Virus record (IMG/VR): IMGVR_UViG_3300021400_000012
Span: 1 to 64,000 of that record
DNA: 64,000 bases
Origin: a virus
Taxonomy: Duplodnaviria > Caudoviricetes
Reading direction: 5' to 3' (one strand)
The position numbers and the translations under genes are program-made. The notes beneath the pieces are model-generated. The model was not told where the DNA came from. It saw only the letters and a program-made list of their open reading frames with translations, and did not search any database. Below are positions 1 through 3,235 of this stretch, piece by piece. Position 1 is the stretch's first letter; every line of letters starts with the position of its first letter.

Positions 1-199
1 AAACTCCCGTGGAGTTGTCCACGGGAGGGAGGGGAGGTCGCGTTCTGCCGATTTTTCATTCCCCTTGTCGGCTCTGCCCACTGATTTGTTACACGGGATT
101 GGTCTTACATTGACAACTTGTGTCTTCCGTCTTTACGGTTGCCTTGCGCGAGTGGCATCATGACCCGTGGGTTTGGTGGGTTGTCCTTCCCTTTCTGTG
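1..199 (-). ncRNA. Candidate structured non-coding RNA (~200 nt)
   Basis: Bounded by a consensus promoter (205-233) and a terminator (4-27). Nested complementary segments. Only an 18-codon ORF with no suitably spaced RBS. Confidence 0.55.
4..27 (-). terminator. Intrinsic terminator closing the ORF-less transcript
   Basis: 10-bp GC-rich stem CTCCCGTGGA/TCCACGGGAG with a 4-nt loop, followed on the minus strand by TTT at the window edge. Confidence 0.7.
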
Positions 200-204
200 A
201 GTTA

Positions 205-233
205 AGTATAACACAGATTTTCGGGTTTGTCAA
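205..233 (-). promoter_or_regulatory. SigA/sigma70-type early promoter
   Basis: TTGACA-N17-TATACT with an A/T-tract UP element upstream. Confidence 0.85.
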
Positions 234-277
234 GTACTTTTTAAAAATTTTTTTTGCTTGTCCCGGGGAAAACTCTC

Positions 278-766
278 TCATCCTGCGAGAGAGTTTTCCA
301 AATATTTGTTGATTGTGTTATTGCTTTTCGTAAAACGCCATTTCTTTTCGTGCGCTCCATCATCCCAACTGCCGCACTTAAGAACGAACGTTTTAAATTC
401 ATTCATATCCATAAACCAAAGGTCAACAAAATCGCCGTACTCATAAACCCAAATATAAGTTGTGTTTGGTAATTCATCGGCGAAAAACTTATTGAAGAAA
501 TACCATTTGTCAACTCTTAAATCTTTTCGGTCGGAAAGTCCGCACTTATAAGATTTCACGCTTGCGTTCAGTTCGGGAATATCATGCCCTTTATCGTGGC
601 GAGTGTTCGCGTCTTTTTTCGGTTCGTAACCGAGAACTGACTTGGCAAGAATCTCACATAAATCGCCATGATTGAAAAATGTTTCGCCGTTAAGGGAATA
701 ATGGGCATTCTTTCTGTTCGGGTCAAAAATATAAGAGATGTTTTTTTTGAAAGTTTCTTTTCTCAT
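278..766 (-). CDS. Early hypothetical protein, possible PD-(D/E)xK nuclease fold; paralog of 2831-3235
   Basis: 162 aa, AAAGGA RBS, own promoter; NxGxxxE...GxD...SVK pattern; TAG-free, ends TGA. Confidence 0.75.
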   Translation of the reverse strand: MRKETFKKNISYIFDPNRKNAHYSLNGETFFNHGDLCEILAKSVLGYEPKKDANTRHDKGHDIPELNASVKSYKCGLSDRKDLRVDKWYFFNKFFADELPNTTYIWVYEYGDFVDLWFMDMNEFKTFVLKCGSWDDGAHEKKWRFTKSNNTINKYLENSLAG

Positions 767-794
767 GGCGATTGTCCTTTCTCTTGATGATTTT

Positions 795-822
795 ATTATA
801 TCAGTTTTTCAAAAAAAGTCAA
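795..822 (-). promoter_or_regulatory. SigA-type early promoter
   Basis: TTGACT-N16-TATAAT, followed by leader ATCAAGAGAAAGGA. Confidence 0.75.
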
Positions 823-920
823 CCCCTTTTTAAAAATTTTTTGCATCTTGGATTATTATTTTTTTGCATCTTGGATGTTTGCGCCCGCGCCTTCCGCCGT
901 CATTCCCTGTCTGTGATTAT

Positions 921-949
921 AGTATAGCATGCGCCCGGGCATTTGTCAA
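921..949 (-). promoter_or_regulatory. SigA-type early promoter with no gene of its own
   Basis: TTGACA-N17-TATACT; the spacer contains the GCGCCCGGG motif. Confidence 0.8.
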
Positions 950-985
950 GTACTTTTTTAAAATTTTTAAAAAGAAAAAGAGGAA

Positions 986-1345
986 TCAGTTTGATTCCTC
1001 AAAAAATCCGCTATATCGTTTTTCAATAATTTCATCATCAAGAATTTCATCTGTTCCTTTTGAGTCCATAATACATGAACAAAAATCTCCAATCATCCAA
1101 TCTTCCGCGCCCTCAAACTGGAAAATAAATCCGTTTGCGTCTTTAACTGTAACGATATCTTCTTGAATATCCACAACTTTCATTGTTTTTGGATAAGTGT
1201 TTTTTTCGTTTGTGATGGTTTTTTCATTTTCGATAGATTTTGCAAGAAAATAAATTCCAATCAAAAATACAATCAAAATTCCCATAACTCTTACAAAACC
1301 AATGAAAGTTTCTTTTATTATTTCTTTCCACATTTTTCTATTCAT
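986..1345 (-). CDS. Early membrane-anchored hypothetical protein
   Basis: 119 aa, N-terminal hydrophobic helix, AAAGGA RBS, own promoter. Confidence 0.8.
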   Translation of the reverse strand: MNRKMWKEIIKETFIGFVRVMGILIVFLIGIYFLAKSIENEKTITNEKNTYPKTMKVVDIQEDIVTVKDANGFIFQFEGAEDWMIGDFCSCIMDSKGTDEILDDEIIEKRYSGFFEESN

Positions 1346-1374
1346 TTTTGGAATTCCTTTCTTTTGTTAAGTTT

Positions 1375-1403
1375 ATTATTACATAAGTTGTAAAATTTGT
1401 CAA
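1375..1403 (-). promoter_or_regulatory. SigA-type early promoter
   Basis: TTGACA-N17-AATAAT with UP element. Confidence 0.7.
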
Positions 1404-1452
1404 GTACTTTTTAAAAAATTTTTCATGTTCGCGCCCGGGATTTTGGAAAATC

Positions 1453-1890
1453 TCAAGACGCTAATTTCTTGAGATTTTCCATCATCAGATTTGCGGGAAT
1501 TGCTTTGCCAGTCCATTTTTCAAGATGTCTTGTTTCATCGTCAAACAAAATATCGTTTCCTTCGTTTACGTCATTTTTGGAAAACCAGTAAGGAACAAAT
1601 TTTATGATATCGAACTTCACACTTTTTAAGTGAATTTTTAACCATTTCATTTTTGCAGATTTTACTTTTTCGTCATATTCTGTATCGGTATTTTTGGCAA
1701 GTGCGCTGACGATACAAATTTCAAAACCCTTGCGCTGTAATTTATTTACAAATCTTGCGAAAACCGAAAGATTCGGGATAGGTTTGGCGGTTGCGTAAGG
1801 GGTCGCATCTTTGGCGGTTAATTTTTCCAACCAGTTTTCAACGCCGTAAAGGTCTGCAATTGTTCCGTCCATGTCAAACCAGATTTTCAT
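1453..1890 (-). CDS. HAD-superfamily phosphatase (5'(3')-deoxyribonucleotidase-like)
   Basis: Motif I FDMDGTIAD, motif II VSA, motif IV ILFDD. Confidence 0.8.
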   Translation of the reverse strand: MKIWFDMDGTIADLYGVENWLEKLTAKDATPYATAKPIPNLSVFARFVNKLQRKGFEICIVSALAKNTDTEYDEKVKSAKMKWLKIHLKSVKFDIIKFVPYWFSKNDVNEGNDILFDDETRHLEKWTGKAIPANLMMENLKKLAS

Positions 1891-1921
1891 TTTCGGAATT
1901 CCTTTCTCTTTTTCTGACTAT

Positions 1922-1950
1922 AATATAACATAAAAGTAAAATTTTGTCAA
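1922..1950 (-). promoter_or_regulatory. SigA-type early promoter
   Basis: TTGACA-N17-TATATT. Confidence 0.75.
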
Positions 1951-2011
1951 TAGTTTTTTAAAAAATTTTTAGTTAGCAACCGCTAACTCGGCGCCCGGGC
2001 GACTCAGAGGG

Positions 2012-2230
2012 TCACCCCTCTGAGTCGATTTCAACCGAACCATCTTCGTTCAGTTCTAACACAATCTCGCCCGTTTCACTATCAATCACCATCACGTTTG
2101 CAACATCCTTGCACTTGATAACTTCGCGCGACCACTTGCGCGCGACCCATTTGGAATAAAAGCTTACGCGGTCGGTATGGGTTACAACAGAGTCTGCATC
2201 GCCACAGAGGGCAACATCTACAATATACAT
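2012..2230 (-). CDS. Early hypothetical protein (72 aa)
   Basis: Start moved to ATG 2230 (MYIVDVAL) behind an AAAGGAAG RBS; the track's longer start overlaps the -10 box. Confidence 0.75.
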   Translation of the reverse strand: MYIVDVALCGDADSVVTHTDRVSFYSKWVARKWSREVIKCKDVANVMVIDSETGEIVLELNEDGSVEIDSEG

Positions 2231-2260
2231 CTTTGATTCTTCCTTTCTCTTGATGATGTC

Positions 2261-2289
2261 ATTATACCACACTGTTGTCTGTTTGTCAA
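2261..2289 (-). promoter_or_regulatory. SigA-type early promoter
   Basis: TTGACA-N17-TATAAT with extended -10 TG. Confidence 0.85.
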
Positions 2290-2374
2290 GTCCTTTTTAA
2301 TCTTTCCCGGCAGCGGGCGCCCGGGCGATGCCAGTTAGTTGCGACTAACTCCGTCTCTAAAGAGAAGAGGACTG

Positions 2375-2536
2375 TTAGTCCTCTTCCAGTGGACACTCTT
2401 CGTGAACAAGAACGATGGTGGCAAGCACTTCATCACTAATCTGTGGATTCTCCATCAGTCTTGCAAATTCAATAACTGCCTCATGCTCAAAGCCATATAA
2501 TCTAATCATTGCGTTTAATAATGCTTCTCTTTTCAT
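2375..2536 (-). CDS. Early hypothetical protein (53 aa, below the track cutoff)
   Basis: MKREALLNAMIRLYGFEHEAVIEFARLMENPQ...CPLEED-TAA; AAAGGA RBS; own promoter. Confidence 0.75.
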   Translation of the reverse strand: MKREALLNAMIRLYGFEHEAVIEFARLMENPQISDEVLATIVLVHEECPLEED

Positions 2537-2566
2537 TATGTTATTTTCCTTTCTCTTGATGAGTCT

Positions 2567-2595
2567 ATTATAGCATATAGCTTCCGGTTTGTCAA
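2567..2595 (-). promoter_or_regulatory. SigA-type early promoter
   Basis: TTGACA-N17-TATAAT with extended -10 TG. Confidence 0.85.
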
Positions 2596-2629
2596 GCCCT
2601 TTTAATCTTTTTCTTCGCGGCAGCGGCTT

Positions 2630-2785
2630 TCAGGCTGCATTGAGAGCCGCGATGATCTGCCGCATTTCTGCGTGGATCCGATCGAGAGCTTCCCAATCGG
2701 CAGCGGTGAAGCGGTCTGCCATATTGATGAAGAACTCGCGGTTCTGCAGGTCTTCAAGTTTCTTCTTCAGTTCTTCTCTCGTCAT
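2630..2785 (-). CDS. Early hypothetical protein (51 aa, below the track cutoff)
   Basis: MTREELKKKLEDLQNREFFINMADRF...ALNAA-TGA; GGAGG RBS. Confidence 0.75.
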   Translation of the reverse strand: MTREELKKKLEDLQNREFFINMADRFTAADWEALDRIHAEMRQIIAALNAA

Positions 2786-2830
2786 TTCTTTGTCCTCCGT
2801 TAATGTTTTAGCTGTTTTTGGTGTGGGAGC

Positions 2831-3235
2831 TTACCTTGCAAGGTAAGCTCTCTGTTCTTCAACTTTCCGGTTCAGTCTCATCTTGACGCTCCCGCCGTTC
2901 TTGCCGCTCTCTCTGCTGATTTCAGCGAAGGCCGTAGCGAACTGGATGAACTCAGCCTTGCTCATGATGTAGGCGGTTTCGGTTTCGAGGTCTCCGAAGA
3001 TGAAGCCGTCCGCTTCAGCATATTCGGTTTCGATACCGCTCAGGTTGGCGCCGTGGCAAAGGGTAGCTCTGAAGCCCTTGACCTGATAGCCGACACCATC
3101 AATCACGAGGTCAGCTCCGCCCTTGCGGTTGTCAGCTTTGGTAGGCTGCCCGAACATCGCGCGCAGACAATACTCGAGATGCTGCCCGTTGTTCTTATAA
3201 ACACGTTCGAGGTTCGAGAAGTGGAAAGTTTTCAT
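2831..3235 (-). CDS. Early hypothetical protein, possible PD-(D/E)xK nuclease fold; paralog of 278-766
   Basis: Start at ATG 3235 (MKTFHFS) behind AAGGAG; NxGxxxE...GAD...QVK pattern. Confidence 0.75.
   Translation of the reverse strand: MKTFHFSNLERVYKNNGQHLEYCLRAMFGQPTKADNRKGGADLVIDGVGYQVKGFRATLCHGANLSGIETEYAEADGFIFGDLETETAYIMSKAEFIQFATAFAEISRESGKNGGSVKMRLNRKVEEQRAYLAR

What the first reader, a model, noticed from the sequence alone, without database searches (positions are those of the whole stretch)
1..233. Promoter-to-terminator ORF-less RNA with a four-way junction
Seen: a perfect TTGACA-N17-TATACT promoter fires into ~200 nt ending in a GC-rich terminator, with no credible ORF. Complementary segments nest cleanly: 77-81/176-180, 92-95/166-169 and 101-104/162-165 close three hairpins (112-115/121-124, 127-130/135-138, 140-143/154-157), giving a cloverleaf-like junction on a long stem. 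Another hairpin lies at ~47-72. It lacks tRNA D/T-loop consensus. Inference: an abundant early phage sRNA, perhaps a decoy for a host defence, an RNAP-binding RNA or a tRNA mimic.
Basis: partly seen in the sequence, partly recalled or inferred. Interest (0 to 1): 0.72.

Follow-up and report, generated by a model that had tools for sequence, protein, structure and literature searches.

The report
New phage early structured RNA family
A strong early promoter and a terminator in this gut/rumen phage bracket a roughly 200-base RNA that codes for no protein. It is a diverged copy of a previously undescribed family of folded RNAs in the early regions of related phages, and its function is unknown.

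Summary
The unit is real but lies on the MINUS strand. Its promoter is TTGACA-17-TGnTATACT (233..205). About 200 nt without a credible ORF follow. An intrinsic terminator (stem 27..4) ends it, and its U-tract runs over the contig junction of a circularly assembled 127.5-kb TAG-recoding phage.

The proposed four-way junction folds no better than shuffled sequence. Comparative data still rescue its core. I found a paralogue in the same genome (G000 125680..125435) and six further members: four IMG/VR phage contigs, one yak-rumen MAG contig and one Clostridia MAG contig. All sit behind consensus early promoters, and none matches Rfam.

- **Supported:** the closing helix (window 92-97/164-169) pairs in 42 of 42 cells, with compensatory changes at 5 of 6 pairs.
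- **Not supported:** the outer stem, the third stem segment and the 47-72 hairpin.

The window copy keeps only the 5' module. It lacks the family's near-invariant 3' hairpin and carries a C-rich tract plus a terminator instead.

Best reading: an independently transcribed, stabilised early noncoding RNA that acts in trans. tRNA mimicry is not supported. Expression could not be tested.

The parts
234..256 (-). A/T-rich UP-like element upstream of the -35, shared by many early promoters of this arm
   Evidence: Sequence. The same flank recurs at 943-965, 1396-1420 and in G000 120028, 125984.
205..233 (-). Early promoter: TTGACA (233..228), 17-nt spacer, extended -10 TG, TATACT (210..205). Predicted start near window 198.
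   Evidence: 11 of 12 matches with TG present.
184..195 (-). 5'-proximal purine-rich Shine-Dalgarno-like tract (GAAAGGGAAGGA) with no start codon behind it. Part of a small 5' hairpin (189-191 with 178-180).
   Evidence: The same tract is conserved at the 5' end of every family member.
75..174 (-). Module A: a multi-branched domain closed by helix P2, plus the conserved single-stranded linker. This is the part shared with the family.
   Evidence: CM R3, built from six other members without this copy, hits window 75-174 at 34.3 bits, E 4e-7.
164..169 (-). P2, 5' strand (CACGGG)
   Evidence: Pairs with 92-97. Probability 0.80-0.87. Covariation across 7 sequences.
92..97 (-). P2, 3' strand (CCCGUG)
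140..157 (-). Hairpin H1: 4-bp stem with a 10-nt loop starting ACUC
   Evidence: Probability 0.69-0.86. All 12 cells paired and 2 of 4 pairs compensatory against the paralogue and L008.
127..138 (-). Hairpin H2: CCGU-AAAG-ACGG
   Evidence: Probability 0.90-0.99. The natural variant 131 C>T falls in the loop. A like hairpin sits at another position in L008.
112..124 (-). Hairpin H3: GACA-CAAGU-UGUC
   Evidence: Probability 0.71-0.83. The paralogue keeps it as GGUC..GACC with an A-U to U-A swap.
76..91 (-). Conserved single-stranded linker UAACAAAUCAGUGGGC (family consensus UAUAAAUNAGURG)
   Evidence: Mostly unpaired in the ensemble. One natural variant falls inside it (83 G>A).
30..65 (-). 3' helix AGGGGA (60-65) with UCCCCU (30-35) around an internal loop. 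It stands where the family has its invariant hairpin.
   Evidence: Probability 0.87-0.98. The domain-B model R2 does not match it.
23..37 (-). C-rich tract CCUCCCCUCCCUCCC holding three CCUCC (anti-Shine-Dalgarno core) motifs
   Evidence: These are the only CCTCC sites on the transcribed strand of the roughly 12.7-kb early arm. They are predicted mostly paired.
1..27 (-). Intrinsic terminator: 10-bp stem and 4-nt loop (27..4). The U-tract starts at 3..1 and continues in G000 127467..127458.
   Evidence: L002 1527..1504, tail TTTTGATTTT. Pair probability about 1.0.

Best explanation
Window 233..1 (minus strand) is a self-contained early gene for a roughly 205-nt noncoding RNA. It is a diverged paralogue of a previously undescribed family of structured RNAs in the early arms of a clade of gut/rumen Firmicutes phages.

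**Shown**
- The host-type promoter and the terminator.
- No ORF.
- Homology to seven other units.
- A conserved closing helix (P2) with compensatory changes.
- Cassette-like mobility between strains.

**Inferred**
- Host sigma-A RNA polymerase fires the promoter right after infection.
- The 5' Shine-Dalgarno-like purine tract and small 5' hairpin shield the RNA from 5'-end-dependent decay, in the manner of STAB-SD and polypurine stabilisers of Bacillus.
- Module A folds into a P2-closed multi-branch domain.
- The terminator releases a discrete stable RNA.
- The RNA acts in trans, most likely by binding a protein or RNA partner of the host or phage through its conserved unpaired linker and loops (decoy or sponge type).

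This copy has lost the family's invariant 3' hairpin. It carries instead a C-rich, anti-SD-like tract plus a true terminator, so it may have a changed or partial function.
For: - **Promoter and terminator:**
- **No SD-led ORF:**. Family hairpin lengths of 78, 80, 79, 91, 80, 79 and 78 nt exclude a conserved reading frame on either strand.
- **Paralogue in the same genome:** 67% mean column identity.
- **Positional orthologue of that paralogue in the sister phage:** nhmmer E 1.9e-23. It is conserved in near-identical blocks split by unalignable segments, at about the same overall identity (74%) as the neighbouring coding cassette (77%).
- **Six further members found with an invariant 19-mer:**
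- **P2:** 42 of 42 cells paired, 5 of 6 pairs compensatory, 0 of 500 shuffles as good, slid controls 35-55% paired.
- **H1:** 2 of 4 pairs compensatory.
- **Family 3' hairpin:** four Watson-Crick or wobble variants of one stem and a variable apex.
- **Independent model:** a CM built without this copy finds it at E 4e-7.
- **Strain data:** the cassette is present at about 98% identity in contigs of four animal-gut runs from four studies. In one run it is followed by a different downstream cassette.
- **Stabiliser precedent:** an SD-like 5' element without a start codon stabilises RNA in Bacilli (PMC3997798).
- **Precedent for the kind:** highly expressed early-promoter-driven noncoding RNAs of unknown function occur in a Firmicutes phage (PMC7698491).
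Against: - There is no expression data of any kind.
- Folding energy of the RNA body is no better than shuffles.
- This copy lacks the most conserved part of the family. Model R2 gives no hit at E <= 10, so it could be a decaying duplicate.
- The four strain-level SNPs avoid the stems, but that is not significant, and one falls in the conserved linker.
- Divergence among strains is similar to that of the neighbouring gene.
- The P2 covariation was counted on an alignment fitted to the structure by the model.
- H1 and H3 are supported only within the closest three sequences.
- No partner or target was identified.
Confidence: 0.55

Rival explanations
1. Cis-acting element. The RNA acts on the polymerase that makes it (put-like processive antitermination) or serves as a regulatory or stabilising leader for downstream early genes. 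The promoter at 233 would then also feed the next cassettes through the terminator.
For: - In L030 the family RNA runs straight into the SD and ATG of a 94-aa gene.
- In L033 it is followed directly by the next promoter with no terminator.
- In L031 a tRNA-Lys gene lies 300 nt downstream.
- Family units always sit immediately after an early promoter.
- Near-invariant sequence would fit binding to a conserved host enzyme.
- Several other promoters of this arm are tandem upstream promoters with noncoding leaders.
Against: - Here and in L029 the unit ends in its own terminator-like hairpin with a U-run.
- Every downstream cassette has its own consensus promoter, so read-through is not needed.
- The downstream neighbour differs between strains.
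- This copy lacks the invariant domain.
Confidence: 0.15
2. Base-pairing riboregulator. The C-rich tract with three CCUCC cores pairs with Shine-Dalgarno regions of host or phage mRNAs and blocks translation, like the C-rich regions of RoxS/RsaE.
For: - These are the only CCTCC sites on the transcribed strand of the early arm.
- Pyrimidine-rich tracts also occur 3' of the L008 and L034 members.
- C-rich regions are the targeting elements of conserved Firmicutes sRNAs (PMC4409812, PMC6158497).
Against: - The tract is predicted to be paired with an internal AGGGGA and with the terminator stem.
- It is not conserved in the paralogue or in four other members.
- No extended complementarity to any phage gene was found.
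- The host genome is unknown.
Confidence: 0.1
3. Decaying duplicate. A copy of the family RNA lost its functional 3' domain and persists only as a transcribed remnant, or as a promoter/terminator spacer in a fast-shuffling cassette array.
For: - There is no domain B.
- Folding is no better than chance.
- The closest sister contig lacks it within the 10 kb upstream that is held.
- No U233-type copy exists in the other family-bearing records.
Against: - The promoter has 11 of 12 consensus matches and the terminator is canonical.
- P2, H1 and H3 keep pairing through double substitutions relative to the paralogue.
- The unit is kept in four independent gut samples, and a roughly 87% variant of its core occurs with other flanks.
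Confidence: 0.15
4. The unit encodes a small protein: the 18-codon ORF MMPLAQGNRKDGRHKLSM, or another short frame.
For: An ATG-started 18-codon frame exists. A frame through the same CUC codon is open in two relatives.
Against: - It has no Shine-Dalgarno sequence.
- Start, stop and length are not conserved (18, 10, 13 or none in relatives, read).
- Conserved blocks show no third-position pattern.
- The SD-like tract at the 5' end has no start codon 5-12 nt behind it.
Confidence: 0.03
5. DNA-level element, such as a packaging site, a genome end or an origin, at the place where the contig was cut.
For: The 107-bp terminal repeat of the record lies inside the unit. The unit is richer in GC than its flanks.
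Against: - Contigs of other runs run across the junction.
- Compensatory changes in helices whose arms lie 35-180 nt apart fit RNA, not duplex DNA.
- The paralogue and other members lie inside contigs.
Confidence: 0.02

Closest known systems
Early-promoter-driven noncoding RNAs of Firmicutes phages (Kayvirus vB_SauM-515A1 lncRNA1/lncRNA2; PMC7698491)
   Same: A noncoding region of a Firmicutes phage transcribed from a typical host-type early promoter, with unknown function. In Kayvirus these reach 2-8% of counts.
   Different: There is no sequence similarity. The Kayvirus regions are 525-570 bp and lie next to tRNA genes. This unit is about 200 nt with its own terminator, and expression is not shown.
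phi29 pRNA (Rfam RF00044)
   Same: A roughly 170-200-nt structured RNA with a multi-helix junction, made from an early promoter of a Firmicutes phage.
   Different: Rfam gives no match. pRNA belongs to about 20-kb terminal-protein phages and their packaging motor. This is a 127-kb phage with an unrelated sequence.
HK022 putL/putR cis-acting antiterminator RNAs
   Same: A structured RNA placed directly behind early promoters. There are two copies per genome, and in some relatives no terminator stands before the next gene.
   Different: put is about 70 nt with two stem-loops and comes from Gram-negative lambdoid phages. Antitermination is not shown here, and each cassette has its own promoter.
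STAB-SD / polypurine 5' stabilisers of Bacillus (cryIIIA leader; phage SP82 early RNA; reviewed in PMC3997798)
   Same: A strong Shine-Dalgarno-like purine tract within the first 20 nt of the transcript, with no start codon behind it.
   Different: Those are elements of mRNAs. Here the tract heads a noncoding RNA, and stabilisation is inferred only.
C-rich Firmicutes sRNAs RoxS/RsaE (Rfam RF01820; PMC4409812, PMC6158497)
   Same: A stand-alone sRNA gene with a terminator and C-rich anti-SD-like motifs.
   Different: Rfam gives no match. The C-rich tract here is predicted paired and is not conserved in the family.
CsrB/RsmZ-type protein-sponge RNAs
   Same: Repeated GGA-containing purine motifs (CAAGGGGA type) at the 5' end and in loops. 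In L029 there are three or four CCAAGG repeats inside the 5' hairpin.
   Different: The motifs differ from the A(N)GGA consensus and are few in number. No CsrA sponge is known in Firmicutes. The resemblance rests on my recollection only.

Membership tests
tRNA / tRNA-like RNA | Cloverleaf recognised by a tRNA detector, with a 7-nt anticodon loop and a T-loop | tested here: not met
   ARAGORN finds no gene in the window, even at a relaxed score, while it finds 23-25 tRNAs elsewhere in the genome. There is no Rfam tRNA hit in 1-3000. The loops are 10, 4 and 5 nt, and 14 nt separate the last hairpin from the closing helix.
phi29 pRNA, 6S RNA, tmRNA, RsaE and all other Rfam 15 families | Match to the family covariance model | tested here: not met
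   cmscan at E <= 10 gives no match overlapping 1-233. The family members in L029-L031 give no match at their positions either.
Stand-alone bacterial/phage sRNA gene (generic) | Own promoter, intrinsic terminator and no translated ORF | tested here: met
Stand-alone bacterial/phage sRNA gene (generic) | A discrete transcript is made | not testable with these tools
   No RNA run is listed for this stretch. Only contigs could be laid.
New early structured RNA family (this report) | Module A: P2 closing helix, interior GUAAGAC block and linker UAUAAAUNAGURG | tested here: met
   CM R3, built from six other members, hits window 75-174 at 34.3 bits, E 4e-7 in a 4-kb search. P2 is paired in all seven sequences. 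The genome-wide run of R3 with its loose first look listed only the paralogue.
New early structured RNA family (this report) | Domain B: long hairpin with invariant GAUGCC..GGCACAG..CCGCC..GGAUGGACGGAGCAGAGCCA | tested here: not met
   CM R2 scores the seven full members at 87-101 bits but gives no hit in L028 (window 1-1674) at E <= 10, and only the paralogue in the whole genome.
New early structured RNA family (this report) | Position directly behind a consensus early promoter, with a 5' purine-rich CAAGGGGA-type tract | tested here: met
HK022 put-type antiterminator | Makes the transcribing polymerase read through terminators in cis | not testable with these tools
   Only the placement behind promoters could be seen.
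RoxS/RsaE-type C-rich riboregulator | Unpaired C-rich regions that pair with Shine-Dalgarno sequences | tested here: inconclusive
   Three CCUCC cores are present, but the unpaired probability of most of the tract is 0.00-0.11. No target could be sought because the host is unknown.

The most novel reading that the evidence does not exclude
The family is a host-takeover RNA of TAG-recoding Clostridia phages. It binds and neutralises or re-programmes a conserved host machine through its near-invariant 3' hairpin and purine motifs. Candidates are RNA polymerase (put-like), a CsrA-type translational regulator, a ribonuclease or a defence protein. The window copy would be a specialised derivative that keeps the 5' module and adds an anti-Shine-Dalgarno tract.
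Probability: 0.2. Interest if true: 0.8.

Novelty: new member of a known kind. Interest (0 to 1): 0.55.

Why it matters
Noncoding RNAs made from phage early promoters are seen more and more in transcriptomes, but almost none has a known function, and few have comparative support. This work gives an uncultivated clade of gut/rumen phages a defined RNA family. The family has a covarying closing helix, a 3' hairpin with roughly 20-nt invariant stretches, two covariance models, and members in stand-alone, leader and truncated forms.

The invariant stretches suggest a specific partner, so pull-downs or in vitro transcription tests are feasible. For the finding itself, the work shows which parts of the hand-drawn junction hold up and which do not.

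Tried and rejected
**Searches that found no homologue of the window copy**
- Megablast and blastn of the region against GenBank phages returned only promoter-flank matches. L029u found nothing there either.
- Flanking proteins in IMG/VR had no relatives.
- Exact 20-mers from the window copy: none in IMG/VR. The single JGI metagenome hit (L024) was a chance match.
- Block-C patterns found only the L008 contig in IMG/VR and nothing in GTDB genomes.
- The 13 more distant relatives (38% identity in the first late-arm protein) have neither module A nor domain B.

**Expression**
- No RNA holder is listed among public runs, so expression could not be examined.

**Target and context searches**
- Target search inside the phage: blastn-short found no significant antisense match. 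Duplex folding against 210 start regions was uninformative because long sequences allow unrealistic loops.
- Pfam and PHROGs on nine early proteins gave only an NT5C-like nucleotidase at 1453-1890. A homologue of it lies within 1.7 kb of the RNA in 5 of 8 contexts, which I take as shared early-arm content rather than a functional link.

**Ideas rejected**
- Suppressor-tRNA idea: the phage has a normal tRNA with anticodon CUA at G000 90172-90244, and the unit contains no CUA.
- CRISPR-repeat mimic: no repeat-like match in Rfam.
- Plus-strand RNA: it folds better (z -3.35), but it has no promoter and the gain comes from G-U pairs.
- Small peptide: see the rival explanations.

**Tool problems**

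Full report
**Where the unit lies**

The window is the first 64 kb of a 127,574-bp IMG/VR virus record. Its ends repeat over 107 bp: window 1-107 equals 127468-127574 at 100% identity. Contigs from other gut samples run across this junction. The record is therefore best read as a circular assembly, with position 1 an arbitrary cut.

The phage reads TAG as sense. ORFs of at least 100 aa sum to 44,028 aa with TAG open, against 24,967 aa under code 11. It carries 23 tRNAs, including one with anticodon CUA at 90172-90244.

**Promoter, terminator and coding check**

It is one of about 30 near-consensus promoters, each with an A/T-rich upstream flank. Together they drive an array of small early cassettes running from window 3292 down through position 1 to about G000 119000.

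The transcript would start near window 198. It ends at a canonical intrinsic terminator with a 10-bp stem, 7 GC pairs and a 4-nt loop at 27..4. The tail TTTTGATTTT lies across the junction. Next come a GCCCGGGC palindrome and the promoter of a 136-aa gene.

The only ORFs on the RNA strand are 18 codons (ATG) and 27 codons (GTG), both without a Shine-Dalgarno sequence. The purine tract GAAAGGGAAGGA near the 5' end looks like the leaders of the coding cassettes, but no start codon follows it.

Rfam gives no match at E <= 10. ARAGORN finds no tRNA-like gene here.

**Is the drawn structure more than chance?**

By energy, no.
- The whole 204 nt has z = -1.74, and that comes from the terminator.
- Without the terminator, the RNA strand has z = +0.32 for 31-204 and -0.73 for the junction region 73-184.

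In the ensemble of the full RNA, four helices are favoured:

| Helix | Window coordinates | Pair probability |
|---|---|---|
| P2, 6-bp closing helix | 92-97/164-169 | 0.80-0.87 |
| H1 | 140-143/154-157 | 0.69-0.86 |
| H2 | 127-130/135-138 | 0.90-0.99 |
| H3 | 112-115/121-124 | 0.71-0.83 |

- Outer stem 77-81/176-180: probability 0.18.
- Third stem segment 101-104/162-165: 0.02-0.07.
- The 47-72 hairpin: 0.00. An AGGGGA/UCCCCU helix (60-65/30-35, probability 0.87-0.98) outcompetes it.

**Relatives**

Direct searches with the window copy failed. Listing what follows each early promoter exposed a second long ORF-less unit in the same genome, behind the promoter at G000 125709. It aligns with the window copy at 67% mean column identity.

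A profile of the two found a positional orthologue of that second unit in the sister phage contig L008 (E 1.9e-23). L008 is 94% identical to this genome from window 3411 onward, but its early arm is otherwise rearranged. Between those two orthologues, near-identical blocks (37/40, 57/59 and 29/30 nt) alternate with unalignable segments. One stem changes from CCGAGG/CCUCGG to CCAAGG/CCUUGG.

An invariant 19-mer from that comparison then found further members:
- Three more distinct units in four IMG/VR contigs of 50-135 kb (L029, with L032 identical; L030; L031).
- Two in short MAG contigs, one from yak rumen and one binned as a Clostridia bacterium.

All of these sit directly behind TTGACA-17-TAnAnT promoters and begin with a CAAGGGGA-type purine tract or a small 5' hairpin. 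None matches Rfam or GenBank phages. Thirteen more distant relatives of the phage have neither part of the family.

**Family architecture**

From 5' to 3':
1. A 5' purine tract or small hairpin.
2. Module A, a multi-branched domain of 96-143 nt closed by helix P2.
3. A conserved unpaired linker (UAUAAAUNAGURG).
4. Domain B, a 78-91-nt hairpin with invariant stretches of up to about 20 nt and a variable apex.
5. A small terminal hairpin.

P2 takes these forms: CACGGG/CCCGUG here, CGCGGG/CCCGCG, CAAGGG/CCCUUG, AGCGAG/CUCGCU, AGCGGUG/CAUCGCU, AGCGGAG/CUCCGCU and CCCAGAG/CUCUGGG. On the model-made alignment of seven sequences:
- All 42 cells pair.
- 5 of 6 pairs show changes on both sides.
- No shuffle of 500 reaches this.
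- Slid controls pair at 35-55%.

That alignment was fitted to the structure. However, P2 is also the unconstrained minimum-energy closing helix in four members and lies within 1-5 kcal/mol of the minimum in the rest.

Domain B's basal stem occurs in four pairing variants, and its apex always forms a hairpin of different sequence. Its lengths differ by 1-2 nt between members, which rules out a conserved reading frame on either strand.

**The window copy within the family**

A model built from six other members, without the window copy, finds window 75-174 at 34.3 bits, E 4e-7. Module A membership therefore holds.

H1 keeps all pairs through two double changes against the paralogue and L008. H3 keeps three pairs, with an A-U to U-A swap against the paralogue. 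These two supports come from three sequences only.

The domain-B model scores all seven full members at 87-101 bits but gives nothing for the window copy. In that place the copy has the AGGGGA/UCCCCU helix, a C-rich tract with three CCUCC cores, and the strong terminator. These are the only CCTCC sites on the transcribed strand of the early arm, and they are predicted mostly paired. No other family-bearing record has such a module-A-only copy.

**Population data**

Contigs of four animal-gut runs from four studies carry the cassette at about 98% identity.
- The few variants lie in loops or unpaired parts: 64, 83, 131 and 176.
- Variant 83 lies in the conserved linker.
- In one run the cassette is followed by a different downstream cassette.
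- One short contig holds a roughly 87% version of window 36-151 with other flanks.

The density of variants is similar to that of the neighbouring gene, so these data show modularity rather than extra constraint.

**What it most likely is**

The unit is an independently transcribed early noncoding RNA and a diverged paralogue of a new family. I infer, but have not shown, three further points:
- The 5' SD-like tract or hairpin acts as a stabiliser, as strong SD sequences without start codons do in Bacilli (PMC3997798).
- The RNA accumulates early.
- It acts in trans by binding a partner through its conserved unpaired parts.

Early-promoter-driven noncoding RNAs of unknown role that make up several percent of counts are documented for a staphylococcal Kayvirus (PMC7698491).

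The main rivals are:
- A cis-acting role, either put-like antitermination or a leader. It is favoured by L030, where the RNA abuts a gene start, and by L033, where no terminator follows.
- An anti-SD base-pairing role of the C-rich tract (PMC4409812, PMC6158497).
- A decaying duplicate.

Coding and DNA-site readings are unlikely.

**Verdict**

The interpretation as an early sRNA is supported in kind. tRNA mimicry is not supported. Function and expression remain open. The main gain is the discovery of the family.

Noticed in passing
G000 C1 125435-125709 (outside the window; L007:952-1226): This is the full-length paralogue of the finding. It has the promoter at 125709..125681 and a roughly 245-nt ORF-less RNA with module A, domain B and a 10-bp terminal hairpin without a U-tract.
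   Followed up: yes
window 790-949; G000 C1 125989, 125859, 124233, 120032: Five short ORF-less units sit behind consensus promoters (-10 mostly TATACT). Four of the transcripts start with UUGUCAAGGGGAGAGA-like tracts, and the window-949 unit starts with CACAGACAGGGAAUGA. They lie as tandem upstream promoters in front of another promoter.
   Followed up: partly
G000 C1 123893-123999; L008 374-477 and 4612-4715; L012 3888-3996 and 4801-4904: A conserved roughly 70-nt leader with a GAGAG..CUCUC hairpin and an AAGGGUUGC box precedes a 94-130-aa gene family in both phage lineages. It may be a regulated leader.
   Followed up: no
L008 5810-5903 (minus strand): The sister phage's RNA carries an extra 5' domain closed by a perfect 14-bp stem (z -4.9). 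Its interior resembles that of module A of the window copy.
   Followed up: partly
L012 6465-6748 (minus strand): In the distant relatives, an early promoter drives a roughly 280-nt unit. Its only SD-led ORF is a 17-aa hydrophobic peptide (MVVGGLGKIFSLVLIFF), which may be a small membrane peptide or a type I toxin-like gene.
   Followed up: no
G000 C1 90172-103426 (outside the window): A cluster of 23 tRNA genes includes one with anticodon CUA. This fits TAG read as sense in the late genes: ORF content nearly doubles when TAG is left open.
   Followed up: partly
window 1-107 and G000 C1 127468-127574: The 107-bp 'direct terminal repeat' of the record cuts through the RNA gene. Contigs of other runs bridge it, so it looks like an assembly overlap rather than a physical genome end.
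   Followed up: partly
window 1-1000, runs X3/X9/X12: Early cassettes are reshuffled between strains at their shared promoter and UP flanks. One run joins the RNA cassette to the 55-aa gene's promoter, without the 136-aa cassette between them. Other contigs join window 253 to 781 or 818, but these are short matches of 20-25 nt at the repeated promoter flanks and may come from other cassettes.
   Followed up: partly
window 1453-1890; G000 124878; L008 5440; L029; L033: An NT5C-like (5'-3' deoxyribonucleotidase-like) early protein of about 145 aa recurs within 1.7 kb of the RNA in five of eight contexts.
   Followed up: partly
L034 510-640: Directly after the family RNA, a further consensus promoter drives another apparently noncoding transcript that starts with CAGUCAAGGGGCGG.
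   Followed up: no
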